A DNA stretch of 64,000 nt from Candidatus Magasanikbacteria bacterium RIFOXYC2_FULL_42_28 (GTDB lineage: Bacteria; Patescibacteriota; Patescibacteriia; Magasanikbacterales; GWA2-37-8). The stretch is taken from contig MFQZ01000005.1 of assembly GCA_001784435.1 (NCBI GenBank), positions 25,015-89,014 of the forward strand. The letters are read 5' to 3'. The notes beneath the pieces were generated by a model. The model was not told where the DNA came from and made no database searches. It was given only the letters and a program-made list of their open reading frames with translations. Numbering within the stretch: the stretch's first letter is position 1; the number at the start of each line of letters is the position of its first letter. Made by a program: the position numbers and the translations under genes. Positions 24,727 through 53,660 of this stretch are shown here, piece after piece.

Positions 24727-24734
24727 TTTTTATT

Positions 24735-24858
24735 GTCATTCCGAACGAATGTGAGGAATCTCCATCCCAATCACAAACCGAATGGAGATCCCTCGCTCGC
24801 CTTGGCGAAGCCTATCGGCGAAGCCAGGTCGACGCGAGTCTCGCTCGGGATGACAGTT
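24735..24858. repeat. Palindromic element family A copy, intergenic (atpA-atpG)
   Basis: TTGTCATTCCGAACGAATG...TCGCTCGGGATGACAGTTG. Internal GGAATCTCCATCC / GGAGATCCC arms. Confidence 0.85.
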
Positions 24859-27258: not shown

Positions 27259-27284
27259 ATTTAAATTTGGTAGTTTACACGCGA

Positions 27285-27535
27285 CGTATGGGTTTGCCTC
27301 TCGCCACCGGTGTCGTCCCGACCTCGGTCGGAACGCACCTACCGCTCAGATTTATGCGAATAAATCTTCCGCGAGTTGACTCAAGGCAAACCCATACGCC
27401 GCGTTAGCTGGTCTATAAAATAACTAGCAGATATATTGGCTTACCTTGAAGCAACTCGCGGAGCCGAGGCGAGCGGTAGGTGCGGCCGGTCGCAGGGACG
27501 ACACCGGTGCTGAAAGGTAAGCCAATATAGCTGCG
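27285..27535. repeat. Large (~250 bp) composite palindrome: two inverted copies of a ~110-nt hairpin-forming element in the atpD-atpC spacer
   Basis: Copy 1 is 27285..27398 (closing stem CGTATGGGTTTGCCT / AGGCAAACCCATACG). Copy 2 is 27436..27525 in opposite orientation (closing stem TTGGCTTACCTT / AAGGTAAGCCAA). Both share CACCGGTGTCGTCCC, GCACCTACCGCTC and TCCGCGAGTTG. GC is about 55%. Confidence 0.7.
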
Positions 27536-27550
27536 TAAAATAATCACGCT

Positions 27551-27988
27551 ATGGGAACATTACACTTCAAAATCGCCACACCGGAAAAAGTTGTCTATGA
27601 AAAAGATATTTTTCAGGTTTCTATTCCAACCACGATGGGGGAGATAACAATTTTACCTCACCACATTCCGTTAGTATCGGTTTTACAAACCGGGGAAATG
27701 CGCGTAAAAGATGCCGAAGGTGAACACTTAATTGCGATTGCGGGTGGGTTTATGGAAGTGCGCGGTAAAAATGAAGTTGTTGTTTTAGCAAGTAATGCGG
27801 AATTGGAGACTGAAATTGATTTGGACCGAGCGGAAAAGGCGCGCCAAGCGGCCATTGACCAAATGGCGAGAGCAAAAGCAGGCGAAGATATTGATTTTGC
27901 GCGACTTCAAGCCACGGTTGACCGCGAAATGAACCGCTTAAAAATCGCCCGAAAATACCGCAAATTACCCCCACCTAAAGAAAATTAA
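27551..27988 (+). CDS. atpC: F0F1 ATP synthase subunit epsilon
   Basis: Typical N-terminal beta-sandwich (ATPEKVVYEKDIFQVSIPTTMGEITILPHH) plus helical C-terminus. Confidence 0.9.
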   Translation: MGTLHFKIATPEKVVYEKDIFQVSIPTTMGEITILPHHIPLVSVLQTGEMRVKDAEGEHLIAIAGGFMEVRGKNEVVVLASNAELETEIDLDRAEKARQAAIDQMARAKAGEDIDFARLQATVDREMNRLKIARKYRKLPPPKEN

Positions 27989-28016
27989 AACTGGGGATAA
28001 GTGCTTGACAAATCCA

Positions 28017-28043
28017 AACCGGCTGTTCCAGCCGGTTTTTTAT
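28017..28043 (+). terminator. Rho-independent terminator of the atp operon (CCGGCTG-ttcc-AGCCGG + TTTTTTATT)
   Basis: 7-bp GC stem with a T-run. Confidence 0.75.
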
Positions 28044-28056
28044 TATGGTATAATAA
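28044..28056 (+). promoter_or_regulatory. Extended -10 promoter element (TGGTATAAT)
   Basis: TGnTATAAT consensus 20 nt upstream of the ATG of the Cys-rich peptide. Confidence 0.45.
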
Positions 28057-28076
28057 CAGTGTTTAATAACATCAAT

Positions 28077-28208
28077 ATGGATGAAAAATGCACTTCTTGC
28101 GCCATCACCATGGATGACCAAGAACAAACTTGCTCCTGCAACGATTCTTTGTGTCGGCGTTGTTGTGATTGTGAGAATGGGTGCGGATGTGAATGTAAAG
28201 CCAAGTGA
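28077..28208 (+). CDS. Cysteine-rich 43-aa peptide (12 Cys: MDEKCTSCAITMDDQEQTCSCNDSLCRRCCDCENGCGCECKAK)
   Basis: Start moved to the Met downstream of the terminator hairpin. CxxC, CxC, CC and CxCxC clusters suggest a metallothionein-like or metal-binding peptide. Confidence 0.4.
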   Translation: MDEKCTSCAITMDDQEQTCSCNDSLCRRCCDCENGCGCECKAK

Positions 28209-28264
28209 AAACAAAGGAAATCCGCGATTGTGCCTAAGCGGTAGTTAAGTTTACACTTTTAATT

Positions 28265-30037
28265 ATGCGAATTGACCAAGGACAATTCCTACAAGTGGGA
28301 GAACGGGCTGGAGTCAAAAATCATGACATCGCTAAAATCTTAGCGGATATAGAAGGTGAAACGGGAGAGAAAGTAAAGCCGGAAGTTGCCCGCGCGATTT
28401 TGAGAATGTTATCTGGCAAAGAATTGAAAGGCGATGACGCCAAAACTCTTCTCAGAGAAATCAACGCTGAATTGTATGATGTTGGAGTTAGATCAGCATC
28501 GCAAAACCCAGACCAAAATGCCGAAGTGTCCTGGACAAAAGATAAAAGAGATAGTGTTAAAATATTGGTGGCCGCTTTAGAAGGATGTTTATTTGACGGC
28601 CAAATACTTAATATCAAACCGGAGCACTACTCCTTGTTTGCTTTTTTGGTTAATCGCTTGGCTAAAATCGGCGAAACTCAAGTCCGGGCTGGCGGCGAAC
28701 TACTAGTGGCCGATTATAATAAAGAAAAATTAGAATCCTTTGTACGCGACGTAGAACAATTCGCCCAACAATTCCTTACTCCAGATAATCTGGAAACCGA
28801 AGAACAAAATTGTAAAATAAACATAGAAGAAAATAACCGTCAAAGCTACGCGTTGGCAGAGACAGTAAAAAATAAAGAACTTCAAGCCCGACAAAAAGAT
28901 GATGCTAATCCTCAACTGACAAAGCAACGTAAAAAAACAGAGGAAAGTCGACGGTATTTTTATGATTATAAAAATGATAACGAACGGGCCCTACACAACG
29001 AGCTCGGTGAGATCATTAACGAAATAATTGAAAGATTGGAACAAATGAAAGAAGAGTATACTCCCGCCAGAGAAGAATTGGGGCGAGATACTCGACATAA
29101 TTATAAATCAGCAGTCCAGACGATGTTGGCAACATTAATAAAAAAAAGAAAAGATATCATTGATAAAATAATCAACAATATCGCCGGGGGTGAATGGAAT
29201 AAATTTTCTTTGGGGACAGTTCTAGAAGATGATCACTTCGCGTTAGAGGGAGAAGAGCGGGGAACTCATCATGCCTTGTCAGTTTTGTTGTGGGAACTGG
29301 AGCGTAGGCATCAAGCCGCCACTTCAAAAGCTGTTCAACCAAAAAAAATGGCGACGCCAAAAGCAGTGCCTAAAACAACACCAAAAATACAGGGTAAAGG
29401 TTTCGGGGCATTAGCTCAATTGAAGGATGCCTTACCAGATAACCCGACAAAAAAGCCACAAGAAAAATCGCTCTTAAGTTTGTTATCAGAGGATCTACCG
29501 GAAGGAACGCACATGCAAACTTTGCTTAGATTGAGAGACAACCTTATAGCCGACAAAAGACACGGGGAAGCGATGGCCACAAAAGTAGACACGGAACAAG
29601 AAAGAAAACAGCGCTACCAACTTGAAACAGAGCGAAGAGTATTATCTATACAATTAGGAAGCATAGAACGCCTAAAACAAGCATCGCCCCAATTAATTAT
29701 CGATAGTGGCAGTAGAATCAGGGCGAGTATTAAAACTAATCCGGGATCAGGACTATATTTGTTAAAAAGCATGATAGTGGCGTTAAAAGTTATGTTGGAT
29801 GAATATAATCTTCAAGATAATCAAAAACCAAGTGCCTCCATTGCTATTGATCTGGCTTTAAAAAAACGGCCGAGTAATGGACAAAAAACAGGACAAATCT
29901 TCATGGGACCTCGTGGTGGATTTGACAGCAGAAACCCAGCCGGTAATAATTATGAAACTGTCCATTTTCCTCCTGAACATCTGCCTTTTGCATTGGCGGC
30001 GGTTGCTTACGCCTTAAAACAAAAAGACGCGGAGTGA
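28265..30037 (+). CDS. Hypothetical 590-aa soluble protein, no recognisable domain, atypical codon usage (AGA/AGG/ATA-rich), charged coiled-coil-rich
   Basis: Long uninterrupted ORF. Local GC about 43% with Arg/Ile codon preference unlike the housekeeping genes. No TM segment or signal peptide seen. Confidence 0.6.
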   Translation: MRIDQGQFLQVGERAGVKNHDIAKILADIEGETGEKVKPEVARAILRMLSGKELKGDDAKTLLREINAELYDVGVRSASQNPDQNAEVSWTKDKRDSVKILVAALEGCLFDGQILNIKPEHYSLFAFLVNRLAKIGETQVRAGGELLVADYNKEKLESFVRDVEQFAQQFLTPDNLETEEQNCKINIEENNRQSYALAETVKNKELQARQKDDANPQLTKQRKKTEESRRYFYDYKNDNERALHNELGEIINEIIERLEQMKEEYTPAREELGRDTRHNYKSAVQTMLATLIKKRKDIIDKIINNIAGGEWNKFSLGTVLEDDHFALEGEERGTHHALSVLLWELERRHQAATSKAVQPKKMATPKAVPKTTPKIQGKGFGALAQLKDALPDNPTKKPQEKSLLSLLSEDLPEGTHMQTLLRLRDNLIADKRHGEAMATKVDTEQERKQRYQLETERRVLSIQLGSIERLKQASPQLIIDSGSRIRASIKTNPGSGLYLLKSMIVALKVMLDEYNLQDNQKPSASIAIDLALKKRPSNGQKTGQIFMGPRGGFDSRNPAGNNYETVHFPPEHLPFALAAVAYALKQKDAE

Positions 30038-30127
30038 GCCGTATAAAATGTAACATTTCCCCATATTTTACGTCTACTACCATATAACCCCCCCATTTGG
30101 GGGCAATTTGCGTATTTTGGGATATTT

Positions 30128-31900
30128 ATGAAAACGGAATTAAAAAATTACACTAAAACGACTTTAAAAATATACTGGAAATTTACCAAAAAATATCCGG
30201 TGCTTTTGACGTTGATGATTTTAGGCGTAGTAGTTGGCGCCGCCACAAACGCTATTATCCCGCTTTACTTCAAGCGGTTGTTTGATGCTTTAACCACCCT
30301 ACCGCAAAATTTGGAATCAGCCGCATTTCTGGTTGAGATTCTAATACTTATCGCTATTGTTGAATTGATACATTGGTTTGCCTGGCGCGTTTCCGAATTT
30401 TCCGCTTCGCTGTCTGTCTCCAGAATTATTAAAGAATTATCCGACTACTGTTTTGCTTACTTGCACAAACACTCTTTAACTTTTTTTAACAATAACTTCG
30501 GGGGCTCTTTGACCAAGCGCGTTAATCGCTTTTCTCGATCTTACGAATCTATCACCGACCGCGTTCAATACGATTATATCCCTTTGGTTGTCAATGTAAT
30601 TTTAATAGTGGCAATTTTGATGGCGCGTAATGTCTATATTGGTCTGGGAATGATGCTGTGGGTGCTAATATTCACCACCATCAATATAATCTTCAGCCGT
30701 TACAAATTGCCATATGATCTGGAACGCAGTAACGCCGACACGGCCACCACCGGCATTTTGGCCGACACTATTACCAACCACAATAACGTTAAATTGTTTG
30801 GTGGATATGAAAGGGAAATAAAAAACTATGGGCACGCGACGGATAAATTACGCCGCCTACGTTTATTAACCTGGATAATGGGTTCGGGATTTTTCGCCTT
30901 CCAAGGACTATTCATTACGGCACTCGAAATCGCTTTATTTTACTTCGCCATCAAACTTTGGGTAATGGGGCAATTTACCATCGGTGATTTTGTTCTTATT
31001 CAATCATATATTATTATCGTTATCGGCAAGGTGTGGGATTTCGGCCGCGTGATTCAGCGCACTTACGAAGATTTGAGCGATGCCAATGAAATGACGGAGA
31101 TTTTAGAAACACCACACGAAATTGCTGACATTCCCGGAGCCAAAATGATAAAAATAAAAAATGGAGAAATTAAATTTGACAATGTTAAATTTTGCTACAA
31201 CGAAACGCGAACGGTGTTGGATAAATTTAATTTAACCGTAACGCCGCAAGAAAAAATCGCATTGGTTGGCCCTTCGGGCGCTGGAAAATCCACCATCGTG
31301 CGTTTAATTTTACGCCAGCACGAATTAACCGCCGGAAAAATTTTAATTGATGACCAGCCCATTGAAAAAATCACTTTGGAAAGCTTATGGAGCGCGGTGT
31401 CGCTGGTGCCACAAGACCCGATTTTATTTCACCGCACTTTGGCGGAAAATATCAGCTACGGCAAACCGAATGCCACCAAAGCCGAGATTGCGAAAGCGGC
31501 AAAATTGGCGCATTGTGATGAATTTATCAAGGACTTGTCCAAGGGCTACGACACTTATGTGGGCGAACGCGGGGTCAAATTATCTGGTGGCGAACGCCAG
31601 CGCGTGGCCATCGCGCGCGCTATTTTGCACAACGCGCCGATATTGGTGTTGGATGAAGCCACTTCCAGTTTAGATTCGGAATCCGAACGCTTGATTCAAG
31701 ATGCTCTTGGCAAATTGATTGAGGGAAAAACCGTGATAGTGGTGGCGCACCGCTTGTCCACGATTATGAAGATGGACCGCATTATCGTAATTGATGCCGG
31801 TAAAATCGCGGAGCAGGGGAGCCACAGCGAGCTTCTCAAAAAACCAAATGGTCTTTATCGGAAATTATGGCAGGTGCAAGCGGGAGGGTTTATTGGGTAA
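30128..31900 (+). CDS. ABC exporter, fused permease + ATPase (MsbA/MdlB-type)
   Basis: Six N-terminal TM helices, then Walker A GPSGAGKST, signature LSGGERQR and Walker B LVLDEATSSLD. Confidence 0.85.
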   Translation: MKTELKNYTKTTLKIYWKFTKKYPVLLTLMILGVVVGAATNAIIPLYFKRLFDALTTLPQNLESAAFLVEILILIAIVELIHWFAWRVSEFSASLSVSRIIKELSDYCFAYLHKHSLTFFNNNFGGSLTKRVNRFSRSYESITDRVQYDYIPLVVNVILIVAILMARNVYIGLGMMLWVLIFTTINIIFSRYKLPYDLERSNADTATTGILADTITNHNNVKLFGGYEREIKNYGHATDKLRRLRLLTWIMGSGFFAFQGLFITALEIALFYFAIKLWVMGQFTIGDFVLIQSYIIIVIGKVWDFGRVIQRTYEDLSDANEMTEILETPHEIADIPGAKMIKIKNGEIKFDNVKFCYNETRTVLDKFNLTVTPQEKIALVGPSGAGKSTIVRLILRQHELTAGKILIDDQPIEKITLESLWSAVSLVPQDPILFHRTLAENISYGKPNATKAEIAKAAKLAHCDEFIKDLSKGYDTYVGERGVKLSGGERQRVAIARAILHNAPILVLDEATSSLDSESERLIQDALGKLIEGKTVIVVAHRLSTIMKMDRIIVIDAGKIAEQGSHSELLKKPNGLYRKLWQVQAGGFIG

Positions 31901-31912
31901 AGGCAGGGCGAT

Positions 31913-32042
31913 TTGTCATTGCAAGCGAAGCGATCTCTCGTCAATTGTCATTTCGAATCCCCGTCGCAGGGGTGAGAAATCTCTGTCTTAAATAATTTTA
32001 CTAACCGGACAGAGATTCCTTCTTCGTCGTCGGAATGACAAC
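31913..32042. repeat. Palindromic element family A copy, intergenic, with duplicated left terminus
   Basis: TTGTCATTGCAAGCGAAGCG...TTGTCATTTCGAATCC...CGTCGGAATGACAAC. The internal pair GAGAAATCTCTGTC / GACAGAGATTCC is reverse-complementary. Confidence 0.8.
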
Positions 32043-32051
32043 AAAATAAAA

Positions 32052-32082
32052 ATATCACGAAATTAATCGTGATATTTTTTTA
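32052..32082 (+). terminator. Rho-independent terminator (ATATCACGA-aatta-TCGTGATAT + T7)
   Basis: Perfect 9-bp stem. A near-identical terminator sequence sits at 40895..40925 after greA. Confidence 0.7.
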
Positions 32083-32154: not shown

Positions 32155-35100
32155 ATGCTTAATAATACCCTCAACCCCGCCCAACTCGAAGCCATAAAAC
32201 ACACCACCGGCCCACTTTTGATTGTCGCCGGGGCTGGTACTGGCAAAACTACCGTGATTGCGGAAAAAATCGCTTATCTTGTTAATACCCAAAAAATTCC
32301 AGCCAAAAATATTTTAGCTGTTACTTTTACCGAAAAAGCCACTGCCGAGATGTCCGACCGCGTGAGCGCCTTATTGCCGGACGGGGGATTGGACGCGACG
32401 GTTTGCACCTTTCATTCTTTGGGACGTAGAATTTTGGAAACGCATGGATTGGAAGTGGGGTTGCCGAATAATTTTAAAGTGTTAAACGATATTGAAGCGT
32501 GGTTGCTTGTACGCCAAAATTTAGAAAGATTTAATTTGGATTATTATCGACCGCTGGGTAATCCGGCAAAATTTATTCACGCGCTTTTAAAACATTTTGG
32601 CCGGTGTAAAGATGAGTTGATTACACCGGAGAAATATTTAGCGCATGCGGAAAATTTACAGTTGGATGGAGATTCCTCGTCGCTCCCGCTCGCTCGGAAT
32701 GACAATGACGGTGAAAGCGATGCGCTTATCCAAAAACGCACAGCCGAACTATCCTCGGCTTACCACTTGTATAATCAAATCTTATTAGAAAACGACTGCT
32801 TGGATTTTTCCGATTTAATTTTCTATACAGTTAAACTTTTACGCGAACGGCCAAATATTTTAAAAATTTATCAAAACATTTGGCCGAATATTTTGGTAGA
32901 TGAATTTCAAGACACCAACTGGGCACAATATGAATTAATAAAATTATTGGCCAAAGGGCGCGAAGATACGGTTGGCCTAACGGTGGTAGGTGATGATGAC
33001 CAAAGTATTTATAAATTCCGCGGTGCTAGCGTCGCCAATATTTTACAATTTTCAACTGACTTTCCAAAATCCAAACAAGTGGTGCTGACCGAAAATTACC
33101 GCTCTGGCCAAACAATTTTGGACTATGCGCATAATTTTATTACCTTAAATAATCCGGACCGACTGGAAGCAAAATTAGGGTTAGATAAAAAATTAATTTC
33201 CGCTACTAAAAAATTTGCCACCGTAGAATTTAGCAATCCAACGAGTGCTAGTGCTGAGGGTGAGGAGATTGCCAAAAATATTCTGGCACTAAAAAAGAAA
33301 AACGATTTGGGGTGGTCGGACTTCGCCGTTTTATGTCGCACCCACCAGATCGTTGACCAAATTTTGCCATCTTTAACCAGTCGCGGTATCCCAACGGTAA
33401 GCGCGGGCGCATCCGGTTATTTACGCACTGGCGCGGCCTTAAACTGCTTGGCGGCTTTTAAATTGGCGGATAATTATCACGAATCACCGGCCGTCTATCG
33501 CTTATTAAATTCCGTGATTTACGATTTACCTTATGAAGACGCGTCTAAATTGGCATTGTTTGTTAAAAGAAAATCAGTATCACTTTACCAAGCGGTTAAA
33601 GCCGGAGTAAATGGAGAAATAAAATTAAGTACCGCTGGACAAATTTGCACTGCTAAATTTTTGGCCGATACTGCTAAATTATCCGTGGACGCTAAAACCG
33701 AACCGGCAATTAAGGTGTTGTATAATTTCTTAGAAAATTCCGGTTATTTAAAAAAGTTGGCGGACGCGCCGGAAAAAAATTATCGCGATATTATGGCTTT
33801 GCAAGCGCTGTTTGATTATTTGGAAAAATTCCAAAGTGATAATCCGGATACAGGCGTCGGCGCGTGGCTTAAATATTATGAATACGCGCTGGAGGCCGGG
33901 GAAACAGGGGAGGCCGAAGCCGATAGCGCCGATGGCGTGCCAGTTTTGACTATCCACAGCGCCAAGGGACTGGAATTTGAATATGTCTTTATTCCGTCAC
34001 TCGTGGATTTGCGTTTTCCAGCGGTGAATCGTTCGGAAGCGATTGAATTGCCGAGCGAATTAGTTAATGAAAAAGTTTTGCCAGAAGACGACGCGCATTT
34101 GGAAGAAGAGCGACGTTTGTTTTATGTGGCACTAACACGCGCCAAAAGCGGGGTATTTTTATCCGGCGCCAAGGACTACGGCGGGGCGCGCGAGAAAAAA
34201 TTATCACGATTTGTTTCCGAATTGGAAAAAACGAATAAGGTAAAATTGAACGACCACTCCCTCACCCCCTCCTCCGAGAGGCGGGGGAAGGCGACGATTT
34301 CCCCTCCTGCCCGAGGAGGGGACGAAGGGGCGGTAAGAGCAATTACCACCCCTCAAACATTTTCCTTTTCTCAGATCTCAACCTACCAATCCTGCCCCTG
34401 GCAATATCGCTATAAATTCATTTTGCATATTCCCACTTTGGGCAAAGGCGTGTTTAGTTTTGGCCACACCTTGCATCTTACCTTACAAAAATTTTACGAA
34501 CGACTAATCGCGTTAAATTCCGCGCGCCAAGGCGAACTGTTCGACGCGCCTCACATTTCTCCCCCTGCCCGAGGGGGAGACGAAGAGGGGGTGGGAGCAA
34601 TCACAGTTGCCAGTTTAGAAGAACTACTGGAATTATATCGCGCTAACTGGCAAGATGATTGGTTTTATAGTGCGGAAAATAAAGCCCGCTACCGTGCCGA
34701 AGGGGAAACAATCTTAAAAAACTTTTACGCAATAAACACAAAAGCCGGCTGGACAATACCGCTGGGTTTAGAAACCGGTTTTCGATTTAAAGTGGCTGGC
34801 GCTGATTTCAAAGGTCAAATTGATCGCATTGACCGCCAAGCCGATGGAAAAATCCGCTTAATTGACTACAAAACCGGCCGACCAAAAACTACGCTTACTT
34901 TTAACGATAAATTACAGTTATTAGTTTACCAATGGGCCGCCACGAGTATTTCGGCGTTAGCTCAAATGGGGGAAATCGGCACACTTTCGTATTTTTATTT
35001 AAATGATGGCACCGAGATGGATTTTATCGGCGCAGAAAAAGATTTAGCCAAAACCGCTGCGACTGTGGAAGAAATAATTAAAAAAATTCAAGCGCGCGAT

Positions 35101-47728: not shown

Positions 47729-48493
47729 TTGAGTATAATAACTCTTACACTCAATTATAAATATCACATTATGCCCACAATTTCAAGATTAACCGCCGCC
47801 TCTATAATACTCCGCGAACCTGCTGAAAATTTGATATTTCAATTGCACAAAAATAAAGTGAGTCCAGAAAATATTGTTAATGAGATATACAAAAAAACTA
47901 AGATCCATATCAACCCGCGAACTATTCAAAAAATTCTCAAATTGCCAGTAACTGCCGGATCGCCAAACACTAATAATCAAAATTTGCTCTATAAAAAACC
48001 GATTGGCAAAGGCGAAGTCATATCGATAATACTTAATCAACCATTTAACGAATTACTAAAAAACCTATATATCTCGCAAAATATGACGGCGGCCGAAATA
48101 TCTGACGAGTTATTTAAAAAAACAAAAATACTAATTACAAATAGATCGATTGCTCGAAATTTAAAAAAACTGGGATTAATCAGGACACTAAGTGAAGCTT
48201 TTAATTTGGCAATTAAAACTGGGCGTAAATCCTACGTGCATCTACGAAGAACTAAGAAATCGATAGAACTACGCAAAGGTGTGCAGCTTAAAATGCGCTA
48301 TAACGTACTTCAAAGAGACAAATTTAGATGCGTATTATGCGGTAGAGACGCGAAAGATGATCGCCTTGAAATCGACCACATCGTCCCCGTCGTCGCCGGT
48401 GGTACGAATGACATAAAAAACCTTCGGACATTGTGCGCGGAATGTAATAAAGGCAAAATGTTGTTGGAGGAAAGACATATCATTGCACTATAA
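47729..48493 (+). CDS. HNH endonuclease with two N-terminal HTH-like repeats, atypical codon usage
   Basis: C-terminal CVLCGRD...EIDHIVPVVAGGTNDIKNLRTLCAECN HNH motif. Duplicated KKTKI(H/L)I(N/T)(P/N)R(T/S)I segments. Confidence 0.7.
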   Translation: MSIITLTLNYKYHIMPTISRLTAASIILREPAENLIFQLHKNKVSPENIVNEIYKKTKIHINPRTIQKILKLPVTAGSPNTNNQNLLYKKPIGKGEVISIILNQPFNELLKNLYISQNMTAAEISDELFKKTKILITNRSIARNLKKLGLIRTLSEAFNLAIKTGRKSYVHLRRTKKSIELRKGVQLKMRYNVLQRDKFRCVLCGRDAKDDRLEIDHIVPVVAGGTNDIKNLRTLCAECNKGKMLLEERHIIAL

Positions 48494-53030: not shown

Positions 53031-53660
53031 TTAAATATTAATTAAATTATTTTTTTTAGTATTCAAAATTTTATGTTCTGTACGAATACTTAATAAGTTT
53101 AATGATCTATTAGTGCTAATGGAGTCTAACAAAATTAATAAAAATATTGGTAATAAATACAATGGATAAAATATTGAATAAAAACCTATTATAAATAATA
53201 AACCGTCCAAAAATATATAGTGGTAATTAAGTCTGTCTCTATGTGTTTGCAAAATTATATTATTTGATATGTATTCAAATTCATCACAAATAGTAATTTC
53301 ACTTTGTCTAGTTGTAATTATCGCAAATTCTTTATTTTTTACATAATAATTTCTCAATCTAACAAGAGTGCCTGGCCCCAATCGGACTAGAGCATCTAAT
53401 GAAATCACAAAACGCGAAATTTGACTACCAAATGCCGATGCTAATCTTCCAATAGAATAAGATATTGATATATAAAATATAGTGACTAAAAATGGCTGAA
53501 ATGGACTATCTTTAAATAATAAATAAACTAAATTACTAGGTAGCAAATTTAAAAATAACAGAGAAAAAATAATAACATTCCCTATAATAAAATACAAAAC
53601 ATCTATAAAAAAACCATGGGGTTTTAAATAGTTAGCCACATCTTTAATTTCTTGATTCAT
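53031..53660 (-). CDS. Hypothetical membrane protein in extremely AT-rich (~25% GC) segment
   Basis: ORF with five hydrophobic helices. Composition strongly atypical, suggesting recent acquisition. Confidence 0.4.
   Translation of the reverse strand: MNQEIKDVANYLKPHGFFIDVLYFIIGNVIIFSLLFLNLLPSNLVYLLFKDSPFQPFLVTIFYISISYSIGRLASAFGSQISRFVISLDALVRLGPGTLVRLRNYYVKNKEFAIITTRQSEITICDEFEYISNNIILQTHRDRLNYHYIFLDGLLFIIGFYSIFYPLYLLPIFLLILLDSISTNRSLNLLSIRTEHKILNTKKNNLINI

What the first reader, a model, noticed from the sequence alone, without database searches (positions are those of the whole stretch)
28044..31900. Orphan module after the atp operon: promoter-equipped 43-aa Cys-rich peptide, 590-aa domain-less protein with foreign codon usage, and an ABC exporter
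Immediately after the atp terminator comes an extended -10 element (TGGTATAAT), then a 43-aa ORF with 12 cysteines (CxxC, CxC, CC, CxCxC). Next is a 590-aa highly charged, coiled-coil-rich ORF with no recognisable motif. Its Arg and Ile codons are mostly AGA/AGG and ATA, whereas housekeeping genes here use CGC/CGT and ATT, and its GC is ~43%, which suggests horizontal acquisition. A MsbA-type ABC exporter follows. Together they could form a metal-binding or secreted-peptide system (peptide plus accessory plus exporter), or a phage- or plasmid-derived cargo. The exporter lacks a C39 peptidase domain, so a classic bacteriocin system is not supported.
Basis: partly seen in the sequence, partly recalled or inferred. 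Interest (0 to 1): 0.6.

Follow-up and report, generated by a model that had tools for sequence, protein, structure and literature searches.

The report
Conserved cysteine-rich micro-gene, not a module
Right after the ATP-synthase genes of an uncultivated groundwater bacterium (Candidatus Magasanikbacteria) lies a never-annotated 43-codon gene for a metallothionein-like, cysteine-packed mini-protein that is conserved in a related species, while the large unknown protein beside it is a lineage-specific extra gene, and the proposed three-gene system is not supported.

Summary
The sequence features are real, with corrections. The peptide has 11 Cys, not 12. The 590-aa gene has 40.9% GC, equal to the window, not 43%. 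Its AGR and ATA codons are enriched but not a majority.

The decisive result is a related contig, L015, whose exporter is 78% identical. It keeps atpC, the terminator, the TGGTATAAT promoter, the Cys-rich ORF and the same ABC exporter, but lacks the 590-aa gene.

The small ORF shows purifying selection (dN/dS about 0.06, 17 of 25 differences at third codon positions). All 11 Cys are kept, two through synonymous TGC/TGT changes. It is therefore a genuine gene, yet it is unannotated and absent from the protein database searched.

By composition it is metallothionein-like: 26% Cys, CxC/CC/CxxC motifs, no aromatic residues or His. It matches no known metallothionein family.

The 590-aa protein belongs to a tiny family (17 clusters among 1.84 billion). 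It is all-alpha with a coiled coil and has no fold or sequence relative. None of the eight homologue loci with DNA carries a Cys-rich ORF. Only one of six other loci where the downstream gene could be seen has an ABC exporter there.

The exporter's membrane domain is closest to Atm1/ABCB7 but lacks their TM6 signature.

Verdict: a new metallothionein-like micro-gene plus an accessory orphan gene, not a trio.

The parts
27551..27988 (+). atpC (ATP synthase epsilon), last gene of the atp operon
   Evidence: Pfam ATP-synt_DE_N and ATP-synt_DE. NCBI name OGH88168.1.
28016..28038 (+). Intrinsic terminator of the atp operon, inside a conserved non-coding block running from 28004 to about 28056
   Evidence: 10-bp stem with 6 GC pairs followed by a T run. 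The block is conserved in L015 with 3 mismatches in about 53 nt, although synonymous sites are saturated.
28046..28054 (+). Extended -10 promoter element TGGTATAAT, 22 nt upstream of the small ORF's ATG
   Evidence: Read directly from the sequence. Identical in L015 at 643-651, 23 nt before its ATG. There is no -35 at canonical spacing: the conserved TTGACA at 28005-28010 lies 38 nt upstream.
28077..28208 (+). Unannotated small gene: 43-aa Cys-rich, metallothionein-like protein MDEKCTSCAITMDDQEQTCSCNDSLCRRCCDCENGCGCECKAK
   Evidence: 11 Cys, no F/W/Y/H. The L015 orthologue (675-803) keeps all 11 Cys. dN/dS is 0.055-0.063, with 17 of 25 differences at third codon positions. It is not annotated in the NCBI record and has no relative in the protein database.
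28209..30045 (.). Segment present here and absent from L015, where about 200 nt (a terminator-like hairpin plus a MITE-like palindrome) stand in its place
   Evidence: The alignment of window against L015 breaks directly after the small ORF's stop codon and resumes about 10 nt after the 590-aa ORF's stop codon.
28265..30037 (+). 590-aa cytoplasmic all-alpha / coiled-coil protein of an uncharacterised CPR-restricted family (NCBI A3J93_00300)
   Evidence: 17 cluster representatives among 1.84 billion. Conserved motifs are FLVNRLAKIxE, PGAGLYLLKS and VHYLPQHMPFA. AF2 model: pLDDT 77, pTM 0.63, all helices. No PDB or BFVD fold match. No profile match to PDB sequences.
30128..31900 (+). ABC half-transporter (type IV exporter fold) with an Atm1/ABCB7-like membrane domain and no C39 domain
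   Evidence: Pfam ABC_membrane and ABC_tran. Below all NCBIfam equivalog cut-offs. Best solved relatives of the membrane domain are NaAtm1 and ABCB7. The orthologue in L015 is 78% identical, with dN/dS 0.069.

Best explanation
The region holds three separate units, not one system.

(1) A genuine, previously unannotated small gene (28077-28208). It is transcribed from its own extended -10 promoter, which sits directly after the atp terminator. It encodes a 43-aa cytoplasmic protein with 11 cysteines. I infer that it acts as a metallothionein-like thiolate ligand, buffering or sequestering soft metal ions (Zn, Cd or Cu) and perhaps oxidants. From general knowledge of metallothioneins, eleven thiolates are enough for an M(II)4Cys11-type cluster like that of the mammalian metallothionein alpha domain.

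(2) A 590-aa coiled-coil protein of a tiny Magasanikbacteria/CPR-restricted family. In this lineage it lies between the small gene and the exporter, probably as an insertion. No terminator separates it from the small gene, so it probably rides on that gene's promoter. Its function is unknown. The most I can infer is a cytoplasmic scaffold whose conserved N- and C-terminal helical regions (inferred to form a head) carry a few invariant polar residues (N130, K134, E137, Y498, K501, H567).

(3) An ABC half-transporter that is the ancestral neighbour of the atp operon and the small gene, and that has its own conserved upstream region.

Shown: the coding status and conservation of the small gene, the presence/absence of the 590-aa gene, and the lack of conserved neighbours for the 590-aa family. 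Inferred: metal binding, co-transcription and the direction of the indel.
For: Small gene:
- The L015 orthologue is 36/41 identical with all 11 Cys retained.
- pS is 0.67 and pN 0.09-0.10, giving omega 0.055-0.063, similar to atpC (0.036) and the exporter (0.069).
- The other frames give omega of about 1-2 or contain stops. The shadow antisense frame gives 0.149.
- The ATG and the promoter are conserved, and protein-level constraint ends at the ATG and at the stop codon.
- The TGY codons are frame-specific, 11/1/0.
- The composition has the hallmarks of metallothioneins: 25.6% Cys, CxC/CC/CxxC motifs, no aromatic residues or His.

590-aa gene:
- It is absent between the small ORF and the exporter in L015.
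- Its homologues sit beside unrelated genes: PNPase, GIY-YIG, NrdD/NrdG, APH/prfB and Memo.
- No Cys-rich ORF lies near any homologue.
- Its codon usage is the most atypical in the window.
- No terminator-like site was found between 28038 and the weak minus-strand match at 28621-28633.

Exporter: its orthologue stays next to atpC and the small ORF in L015, with conserved upstream sequence.
Against: - Only two sequences of the small gene exist.
- No metallothionein Pfam or NCBIfam model matches, and nothing in the PDB does either.
- Metal binding is inferred from composition alone.
- The shadow antisense frame also has a lowish omega (0.149).
- The small ORF and the exporter stay adjacent in both genomes, and the exporter's membrane domain is Atm1/ABCB7-like, so a functional pair is not excluded.
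- A second 590-family member (P0007, L006) also sits 20 nt upstream of a different ABC exporter. At roughly 1% ABC exporter genes per genome this is more than expected by chance.
- The direction of the indel (insertion or deletion) cannot be determined from two genomes.
Confidence: 0.55

Rival explanations
1. The small gene and the exporter form a two-gene thiol/metal unit. The Cys-rich peptide chelates metal or carries sulfur, and the Atm1-like ABC exporter removes the complex or exports the peptide itself. The 590-aa gene is a passenger inserted between them.
For: - The small ORF and the exporter are adjacent in both genomes, although synonymous sites are saturated.
- The best solved relatives of the exporter's membrane domain are NaAtm1, the 'ATM1-type heavy metal exporter' (52 bits, E 4e-13), and ABCB7. 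MsbA scores only about 22 bits.
- Atm1-type pumps carry glutathione-metal species (PMC9000953).
Against: - The adjacency may be plain inherited synteny, since atpC is also conserved on the other side.
- A terminator-like hairpin plus a MITE (L015), or a whole gene (window), separates the two, and the exporter has its own conserved upstream region.
- The Atm1 TM6 signature PLNFLGSVYR is not conserved. The aligned sequence here is KVWDFGRVIQ (PMC9000953).
- The peptide has no export leader.
Confidence: 0.17
2. One reading: peptide, 590-aa accessory protein and exporter act together as a secreted-peptide or metal system.
For: - All three lie on the same strand with short gaps and no strong terminator between them in the window.
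- L006 has a superficially parallel layout: a small DUF2103 'predicted metal-binding' ORF, then the 590-family member P0007, then an ABC_membrane gene.
Against: - L015 lacks the 590-aa gene but keeps the other two.
- No homologue locus has a Cys-rich ORF.
- Five of six other loci where the downstream gene could be seen have no ABC exporter there.
- The two ABC exporters are not detectably similar.
- The DUF2103 ORF has no Cys.
- There is no C39 domain, no leader motif and no maturase.
Confidence: 0.06
3. The small ORF is a cysteine-sensing leader peptide. Ribosome pausing at Cys codons would attenuate or de-attenuate the downstream gene(s), as with the mycobacterial polycysteine short ORFs.
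For: - It is a short ORF with a short leader directly behind a promoter, upstream of other genes, and is very rich in Cys codons.
- There is a precedent in bioRxiv 10.1101/834739.
Against: - The Cys residues are dispersed, with only one CC doublet, rather than forming a tract.
- Non-Cys residues are also under strong constraint (omega about 0.06, with NDSLCRRCCDCENGCGC identical).
- The downstream element is not conserved: the 590-aa gene here, a hairpin plus MITE in L015.
- The leader RNA folds no better than shuffled sequence (z = +0.85) and has no Rfam match.
- The downstream genes are not cysteine-metabolism genes.
Confidence: 0.05
4. The small ORF is not translated. The conservation would then reflect a DNA or RNA element, or the antisense shadow ORF.
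For: - Gene callers never called it, and on L015 they called a 136-aa antisense ORF instead.
- The antisense shadow frame is open in both genomes with omega 0.149.
- There is no Shine-Dalgarno sequence.
Against: - The sense frame has the lowest omega (0.055) and the highest identity.
- The start and end of the antisense ORF are not conserved, and it has no conserved promoter.
- Most genes in this genome lack a Shine-Dalgarno sequence.
- 11 in-frame Cys codons are retained through synonymous changes.
- No RNA structure signal was found.
Confidence: 0.07

Closest known systems
Metallothioneins as a class (for example the 11-Cys alpha domain of mammalian metallothionein, and small fungal Cu-thioneins)
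   Same: Very small size, about 26% Cys arranged as CxC, CC and CxxC, and no aromatic residues or His. From general knowledge, 11 thiolates match the ligand count of an M4Cys11 cluster.
   Different: No detectable sequence relationship to any metallothionein Pfam or NCBIfam model or PDB chain. The acidic N-terminal half is less Cys-dense. Metal binding is untested. The host is a CPR bacterium, and a full-text search for 'metallothionein' together with 'Candidate Phyla Radiation' found no paper.
Bacterial metallothioneins SmtA/BmtA/PmtA (Pfam Metallothio_Pro) and MymT
   Same: Small cytosolic bacterial Cys-rich metal-sequestering proteins (PMC7387436).
   Different: The SmtA/Pseudomonas type uses a Cys9His cluster in a zinc-finger-like fold (PMC7387436). 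This peptide has no His and no Pfam match.
Mycobacterial polycysteine leaderless short ORFs (Cys-responsive attenuators; bioRxiv 10.1101/834739)
   Same: An unannotated Cys-rich short ORF at the 5' end of a transcript.
   Different: The Cys residues are dispersed, the whole peptide is conserved, the downstream gene is not conserved, no regulatory RNA structure is detectable, and no Cys-metabolism genes follow.
Atm1/ABCB7/ABCB6-type ABC exporters (NaAtm1, PDB 4mrn)
   Same: Homodimer-type half-transporter. The membrane domain is most similar to NaAtm1 and ABCB7 among all solved exporters.
   Different: The conserved TM6 glutathione-site motif PLNFLGSVYR (PMC9000953) is replaced by KVWDFGRVIQ. 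No NCBIfam equivalog cut-off is reached.
Coiled-coil scaffold proteins (SMC/Rad50-type arms), for the 590-aa protein
   Same: Long antiparallel helical stretches flanked by N- and C-terminal conserved regions.
   Different: No ATPase motifs. Foldseek matches are coiled-coil noise only (best E 0.009, TM at most 0.15). No profile match to the PDB.

Membership tests
Metallothionein (class defined by composition and metal-thiolate clusters) | Low molecular weight (under about 10 kDa) and high Cys content | tested here: met
   43 aa, 11 Cys = 25.6%.
Metallothionein (class defined by composition and metal-thiolate clusters) | Cys arranged in CxC, CC and CxxC motifs; aromatic residues absent | tested here: met
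   Cys at positions 5, 8, 19, 21, 26, 29, 30, 32, 36, 38 and 40. No F, W, Y or H. All 11 Cys are conserved in L015.
Metallothionein (class defined by composition and metal-thiolate clusters) | Forms metal-thiolate clusters with Zn, Cd or Cu | not testable with these tools
   Needs metal titration of the peptide by ESI-MS, ICP-MS, UV or CD.
Bacterial SmtA/BmtA family (Pfam Metallothio_Pro) | Sequence match to the family model | tested here: not met
   No Pfam family at E up to 1 for the window peptide or up to 10 for the L015 peptide. No PDB sequence match at E up to 10.
Bacterial SmtA/BmtA family (Pfam Metallothio_Pro) | His ligand(s) in a Cys9His cluster (PMC7387436) | tested here: not met
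   The peptide contains no His.
Polycysteine leader short-ORF attenuators (bioRxiv 10.1101/834739) | A run of consecutive Cys codons that stalls ribosomes | tested here: not met
   Only one CC doublet; the Cys residues are dispersed over 36 residues.
Polycysteine leader short-ORF attenuators (bioRxiv 10.1101/834739) | An mRNA structure sequestering the downstream start site, and conserved downstream cysteine-metabolism genes | tested here: not met
   Fold z-score +0.85. The downstream element differs between the two genomes. The downstream genes are not Cys-metabolism genes.
Peptide-cleaving bacteriocin/RiPP ABC export systems | N-terminal C39 peptidase domain on the exporter and a double-glycine leader on the peptide | tested here: not met
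   The exporter has only ABC_membrane (28-301) and ABC_tran (364-513). The peptide has no GG or GA leader motif. No maturase gene is adjacent.
MsbA (NCBIfam TIGR02203 equivalog) | Score at or above the curated cut-off | tested here: not met
   394.6 bits against a cut-off of 602. The membrane domain scores only about 22 bits against MsbA chains.
Atm1/ABCB7-type exporters | Membrane domain closest to Atm1-clade members | tested here: met
   Residues 1-330 score 52 bits against NaAtm1, 51 against ABCB7, 41 against Atm3, 37 against ABCB6, 23.6 against Sav1866 and 22.5 against MsbA.
Atm1/ABCB7-type exporters | Conserved TM6 motif PLNFLGSVYR lining the glutathione site (PMC9000953) | tested here: not met
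   The HMMER alignment to NaAtm1 places KVWDFGRVIQ opposite PLDMLGMVYR. The kink Pro, the Tyr and the Arg are all absent.
Known protein families, for the 590-aa protein | Any significant profile or fold match | tested here: not met

The most novel reading that the evidence does not exclude
The 43-aa protein founds a new metallothionein-like micro-protein family in CPR/Patescibacteria. These are organisms with minimal metabolism, and this genome comes from a metal-impacted aquifer. The protein would work together with the conserved neighbouring Atm1-like ABC exporter as a minimal, gene-encoded thiol-ligand plus pump system for metal or sulfur handling, in place of the glutathione-based chemistry that Atm1 pumps use elsewhere.
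Probability: 0.15. Interest if true: 0.6.

Novelty: new member of a known kind. Interest (0 to 1): 0.4.

Why it matters
Small proteins are systematically missed in genomes assembled from metagenomes. This one was skipped on every contig whose gene calls I saw, and on L015 a spurious antisense ORF was called in its place.

If it binds metal, it would, as far as my searches show, be the first metallothionein-type protein described for the Candidate Phyla Radiation, and it is an easily synthesised 43-mer that can be tested directly.

The work also corrects a tempting gene-neighbourhood inference. One comparison with a related genome shows that the large orphan gene is an accessory insertion, not a partner of the peptide.

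Finally, it defines a tiny CPR-restricted coiled-coil family with no structural relatives as a target for later study.

Tried and rejected
- Word-indexed homologue searches gave only the query itself plus P0002 for the 590-aa protein and its alignment, and nothing for the peptide.
- The exhaustive representative search gave the 17-member family.
- The genome and metagenome locus scans each returned a single locus.
- Viral contig scans and tblastn against phages and plasmids found nothing, so a phage or plasmid origin has no support.
- Pfam, NCBIfam, PHROGs and PADLOC scans of the peptide, the 590-aa protein and 14 homologues gave nothing significant.
- PDB sequence and profile searches gave only coiled-coil or nsp8 noise.
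- The RNA-element reading of 28060-28270 is rejected: fold z = +0.85 and only sub-threshold Rfam noise.
- The codon-usage log-likelihood of the small ORF is uninformative, because Cys codons are rare in the training genes.
- I looked for MITE remnants or flanking repeats around the 590-aa gene and found none convincing.
- GC-based evidence for transfer is rejected.
- The L006 ABC fragment is not similar to the window's exporter and has no PDB relative.
- A bioRxiv paper on insect metallothioneins (10.1101/2020.06.25.172213) mentions a Cys-motif match in 'Candidatus Magasanikbacteria' but gives no accession. It remains only a lead.

Full report
**Source and setting.** The 590-aa ORF is identical to 'hypothetical protein A3J93_00300' of Candidatus Magasanikbacteria bacterium RIFOXYC2_FULL_42_28, a CPR/Patescibacteria genome assembled from a metagenome. 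The region follows the atp operon: alpha, gamma, beta and epsilon subunits. Most genes in the window have AT-rich upstream regions without a Shine-Dalgarno sequence, so the lack of one is no argument against any ORF here.

**Checking the observation.**
- the terminator at 28016-28038;
- TGGTATAAT at 28046-28054;
- the ATG-started 43-codon ORF at 28077-28208;
- the 590-aa ORF at 28265-30037;
- the ABC exporter at 30128-31900, which has only ABC_membrane and ABC_tran domains.

Several details needed correction:
- The peptide has 11 Cys, not 12.
- GC of the 590-aa gene is 0.409 against 0.413 for the window.
- AGR codons are 43% of Arg (background 15%) and ATA is 38% of Ile (background 18%).
- In a parametric test of synonymous codon choice the gene is the most atypical of 58 ORFs (z = -5.0). 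Its length inflates that z, and several shorter genes are worse per codon.

The Cys richness is far beyond chance. The 11 TGY codons are all in one frame (11/1/0). The count distribution over all six-frame 43-aa windows thins sharply above 6 Cys; I did not check where the few higher-count windows lie.

**The decisive comparison.** The 90%-identity cluster of atpC contained variants from other samples. One of them, P0023, led to contig L015. L015 carries, in order:
- atpC;
- the same TTGACA-hairpin-TGGTATAAT block, with 3 mismatches in about 53 nt;
- a 42-codon ORF, MDEKCTSCAIIMDEEEQVCSCNDSLCRRCCDCENGCGCSCKE;
- a terminator-like hairpin and a MITE-like palindrome;
- the orthologous 590-aa ABC exporter, 78% identical.

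There is no 590-aa coiled-coil gene. Window positions 28209 to about 30045 are replaced by roughly 200 nt in L015.

**The small ORF is a real gene.**
- Between the two genomes it has pS 0.67 and pN 0.09-0.10 (omega 0.055-0.063). 17 of 25 differences are at third codon positions.
- This is the same regime as atpC (omega 0.036) and the exporter (0.069).
- All 11 Cys are retained, two of them through TGC/TGT changes.
- Among the six frames the sense frame has the lowest omega. The 'shadow' antisense frame, whose third positions coincide with the sense frame's, gives 0.149. The rest give about 1-2 or contain stops.
- The antisense ORF has no conserved start, end or promoter. The sense ORF has a conserved ATG, a conserved promoter 22-23 nt upstream and a near-identical stop position.
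- The leader region shows no RNA-structure signal (z = +0.85) and no Rfam match.

The gene is not annotated. The NCBI locus tags run A3J93_00300 (590-aa gene), A3J93_00305 (exporter) and A3J93_00310 with no extra entry, and no gene is called there on L001, L002 or L015. No protein among 5.8 billion cluster representatives shares even three 5-mers with it.

**What the small protein is.** By composition it meets the descriptive definition of a metallothionein: 43 aa, 25.6% Cys, CxxC/CxC/CC/CxCxC motifs, and no Phe, Trp, Tyr or His. It is not a member of any known metallothionein family by sequence. It also lacks the His ligand of the SmtA/Pseudomonas type (PMC7387436). I therefore call it metallothionein-like. 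Metal binding is an inference.

A cysteine-sensing leader peptive like the mycobacterial polycysteine short ORFs (bioRxiv 10.1101/834739) is unlikely, for three reasons:
- the Cys residues are dispersed;
- the whole peptide is constrained;
- the downstream element is not conserved.

**The 590-aa protein.**
- An exhaustive HMMER search of 1.84 billion representatives found 17 proteins. Six are full-length at about 30% identity and the rest are more distant.
- Shared motifs are FLVNRLAKIxE, PGAGLYLLKS and VHYLPQHMPFA. The invariant residues are N130, A133, K134, I135, E137, V163, Y498, K501, H567 and F575.
- It has no TM segment and is 30% charged.
- The AF2 model (pLDDT 77, pTM 0.63) is all-helical with long helices at 173-264.
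- Foldseek against PDB and BFVD gave only coiled-coil noise.
- Profile searches against PDB sequences, Pfam, NCBIfam, PHROGs and PADLOC were empty.
- The flanking genes at homologue loci differ: PNPase (P0002, L008), GIY-YIG (P0004), NrdD/NrdG (P0009), APH and prfB-ftsEX (P0012), and Memo (P0013).
- None of the eight homologue loci with DNA has a Cys-rich ORF. Two upstream gaps, 73 and 96 nt, are too short for one.
- Only P0007 (L006) is followed by an ABC exporter, and that exporter is not similar to the one here.
- No phage, plasmid or viral relatives were found.

I conclude that this is an accessory, lineage-restricted gene that lies between the small gene and the exporter in this genome. 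With no terminator between them, it is probably co-transcribed from the small gene's promoter. Its function remains unknown, and a cytoplasmic scaffold is the most I can infer.

**The exporter.**
- It scores below all NCBIfam equivalog cut-offs, for example MsbA 394.6 bits against a cut-off of 602.
- Using only the membrane domain (residues 1-330), the solved relatives rank NaAtm1 (52 bits), ABCB7 (51), Atm3 (41) and ABCB6 (37). McjD (29), Sav1866 (23.6) and MsbA (22.5) follow well behind.
- The Atm1 TM6 signature PLNFLGSVYR (PMC9000953) is not conserved; KVWDFGRVIQ aligns to it.
- It therefore resembles the Atm1 clade but fails a defining feature, so its substrate cannot be inferred.
- Its retention next to the small gene in both genomes keeps a two-gene thiol/metal hypothesis alive at roughly 15-17%.

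**Verdict.** The three-gene 'module' is not supported. The valuable residue is a genuine, conserved, unannotated metallothionein-like micro-gene in a CPR bacterium, alongside a rare orphan coiled-coil family. Novelty is modest (a new member of a known kind), and the direct tests are straightforward.

Noticed in passing
window 27267-27547; L015 868-1006: The atpD-atpC spacer (about 290 nt) is filled by nested inverted repeats, a MITE-like palindromic element. The same repeat family sits in L015 exactly where the window has the 590-aa gene.
   Followed up: partly
window 24732-24755, 32030-32069, 32683-32706; 34297-34346 and 34555-34604: A short 'GTCATTCCGA' repeat occurs in two intergenic spacers and also inside the 1005-aa UvrD/PD-(D/E)XK (AddA-like) ORF. 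A 50-nt direct repeat (82% identical, translating to ISPPARGGDEGAV) occurs twice inside the same ORF. These look like in-frame repeat insertions in a helicase-nuclease gene.
   Followed up: no
window 53031-53660 (-): A 209-aa ORF with GC 0.238 (window mean 0.413), GC3 0.157 and no Pfam family. It is the strongest compositional outlier in the window and a better candidate for foreign DNA than the 590-aa gene.
   Followed up: partly
window 47729-48493 (+): An HNH endonuclease gene with the second most atypical codon usage in the window (z = -3.9).
   Followed up: no
window, upstream of about 50 genes: Almost no gene has a Shine-Dalgarno sequence. Several have a TATAAT-like hexamer within about 10-25 nt of the ATG, suggesting short-leader or leaderless translation is common in this organism.
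   Followed up: no
window 28005-28010: A perfect TTGACA lies upstream of the atp terminator hairpin, 38 nt from the TATAAT. It is conserved in L015 but too far away to serve as a canonical -35. Its role is unexplained.
   Followed up: no
L006 5950-8802: An uncalled 93-aa ORF matches DUF2103 ('predicted metal-binding protein', E 1.2e-7, no Cys). It is followed by the 590-family member P0007 and, 20 nt later, by a divergent ABC_membrane gene. The layout superficially parallels the window's trio.
   Followed up: partly
L015 656-1066 (-): The public gene call here is a 136-aa antisense ORF running over the MITE and the Cys-rich gene. It has no family match and is probably a spurious call that masks the real small gene.
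   Followed up: yes
window 30089-30104: A small GC hairpin (CCCCCC-ATTT-GGGGG) lies in the conserved region upstream of the ABC exporter. A hairpin is also present at the equivalent place in L015 (CCCG..CGGG). It could be a weak terminator or a regulatory element.
   Followed up: no
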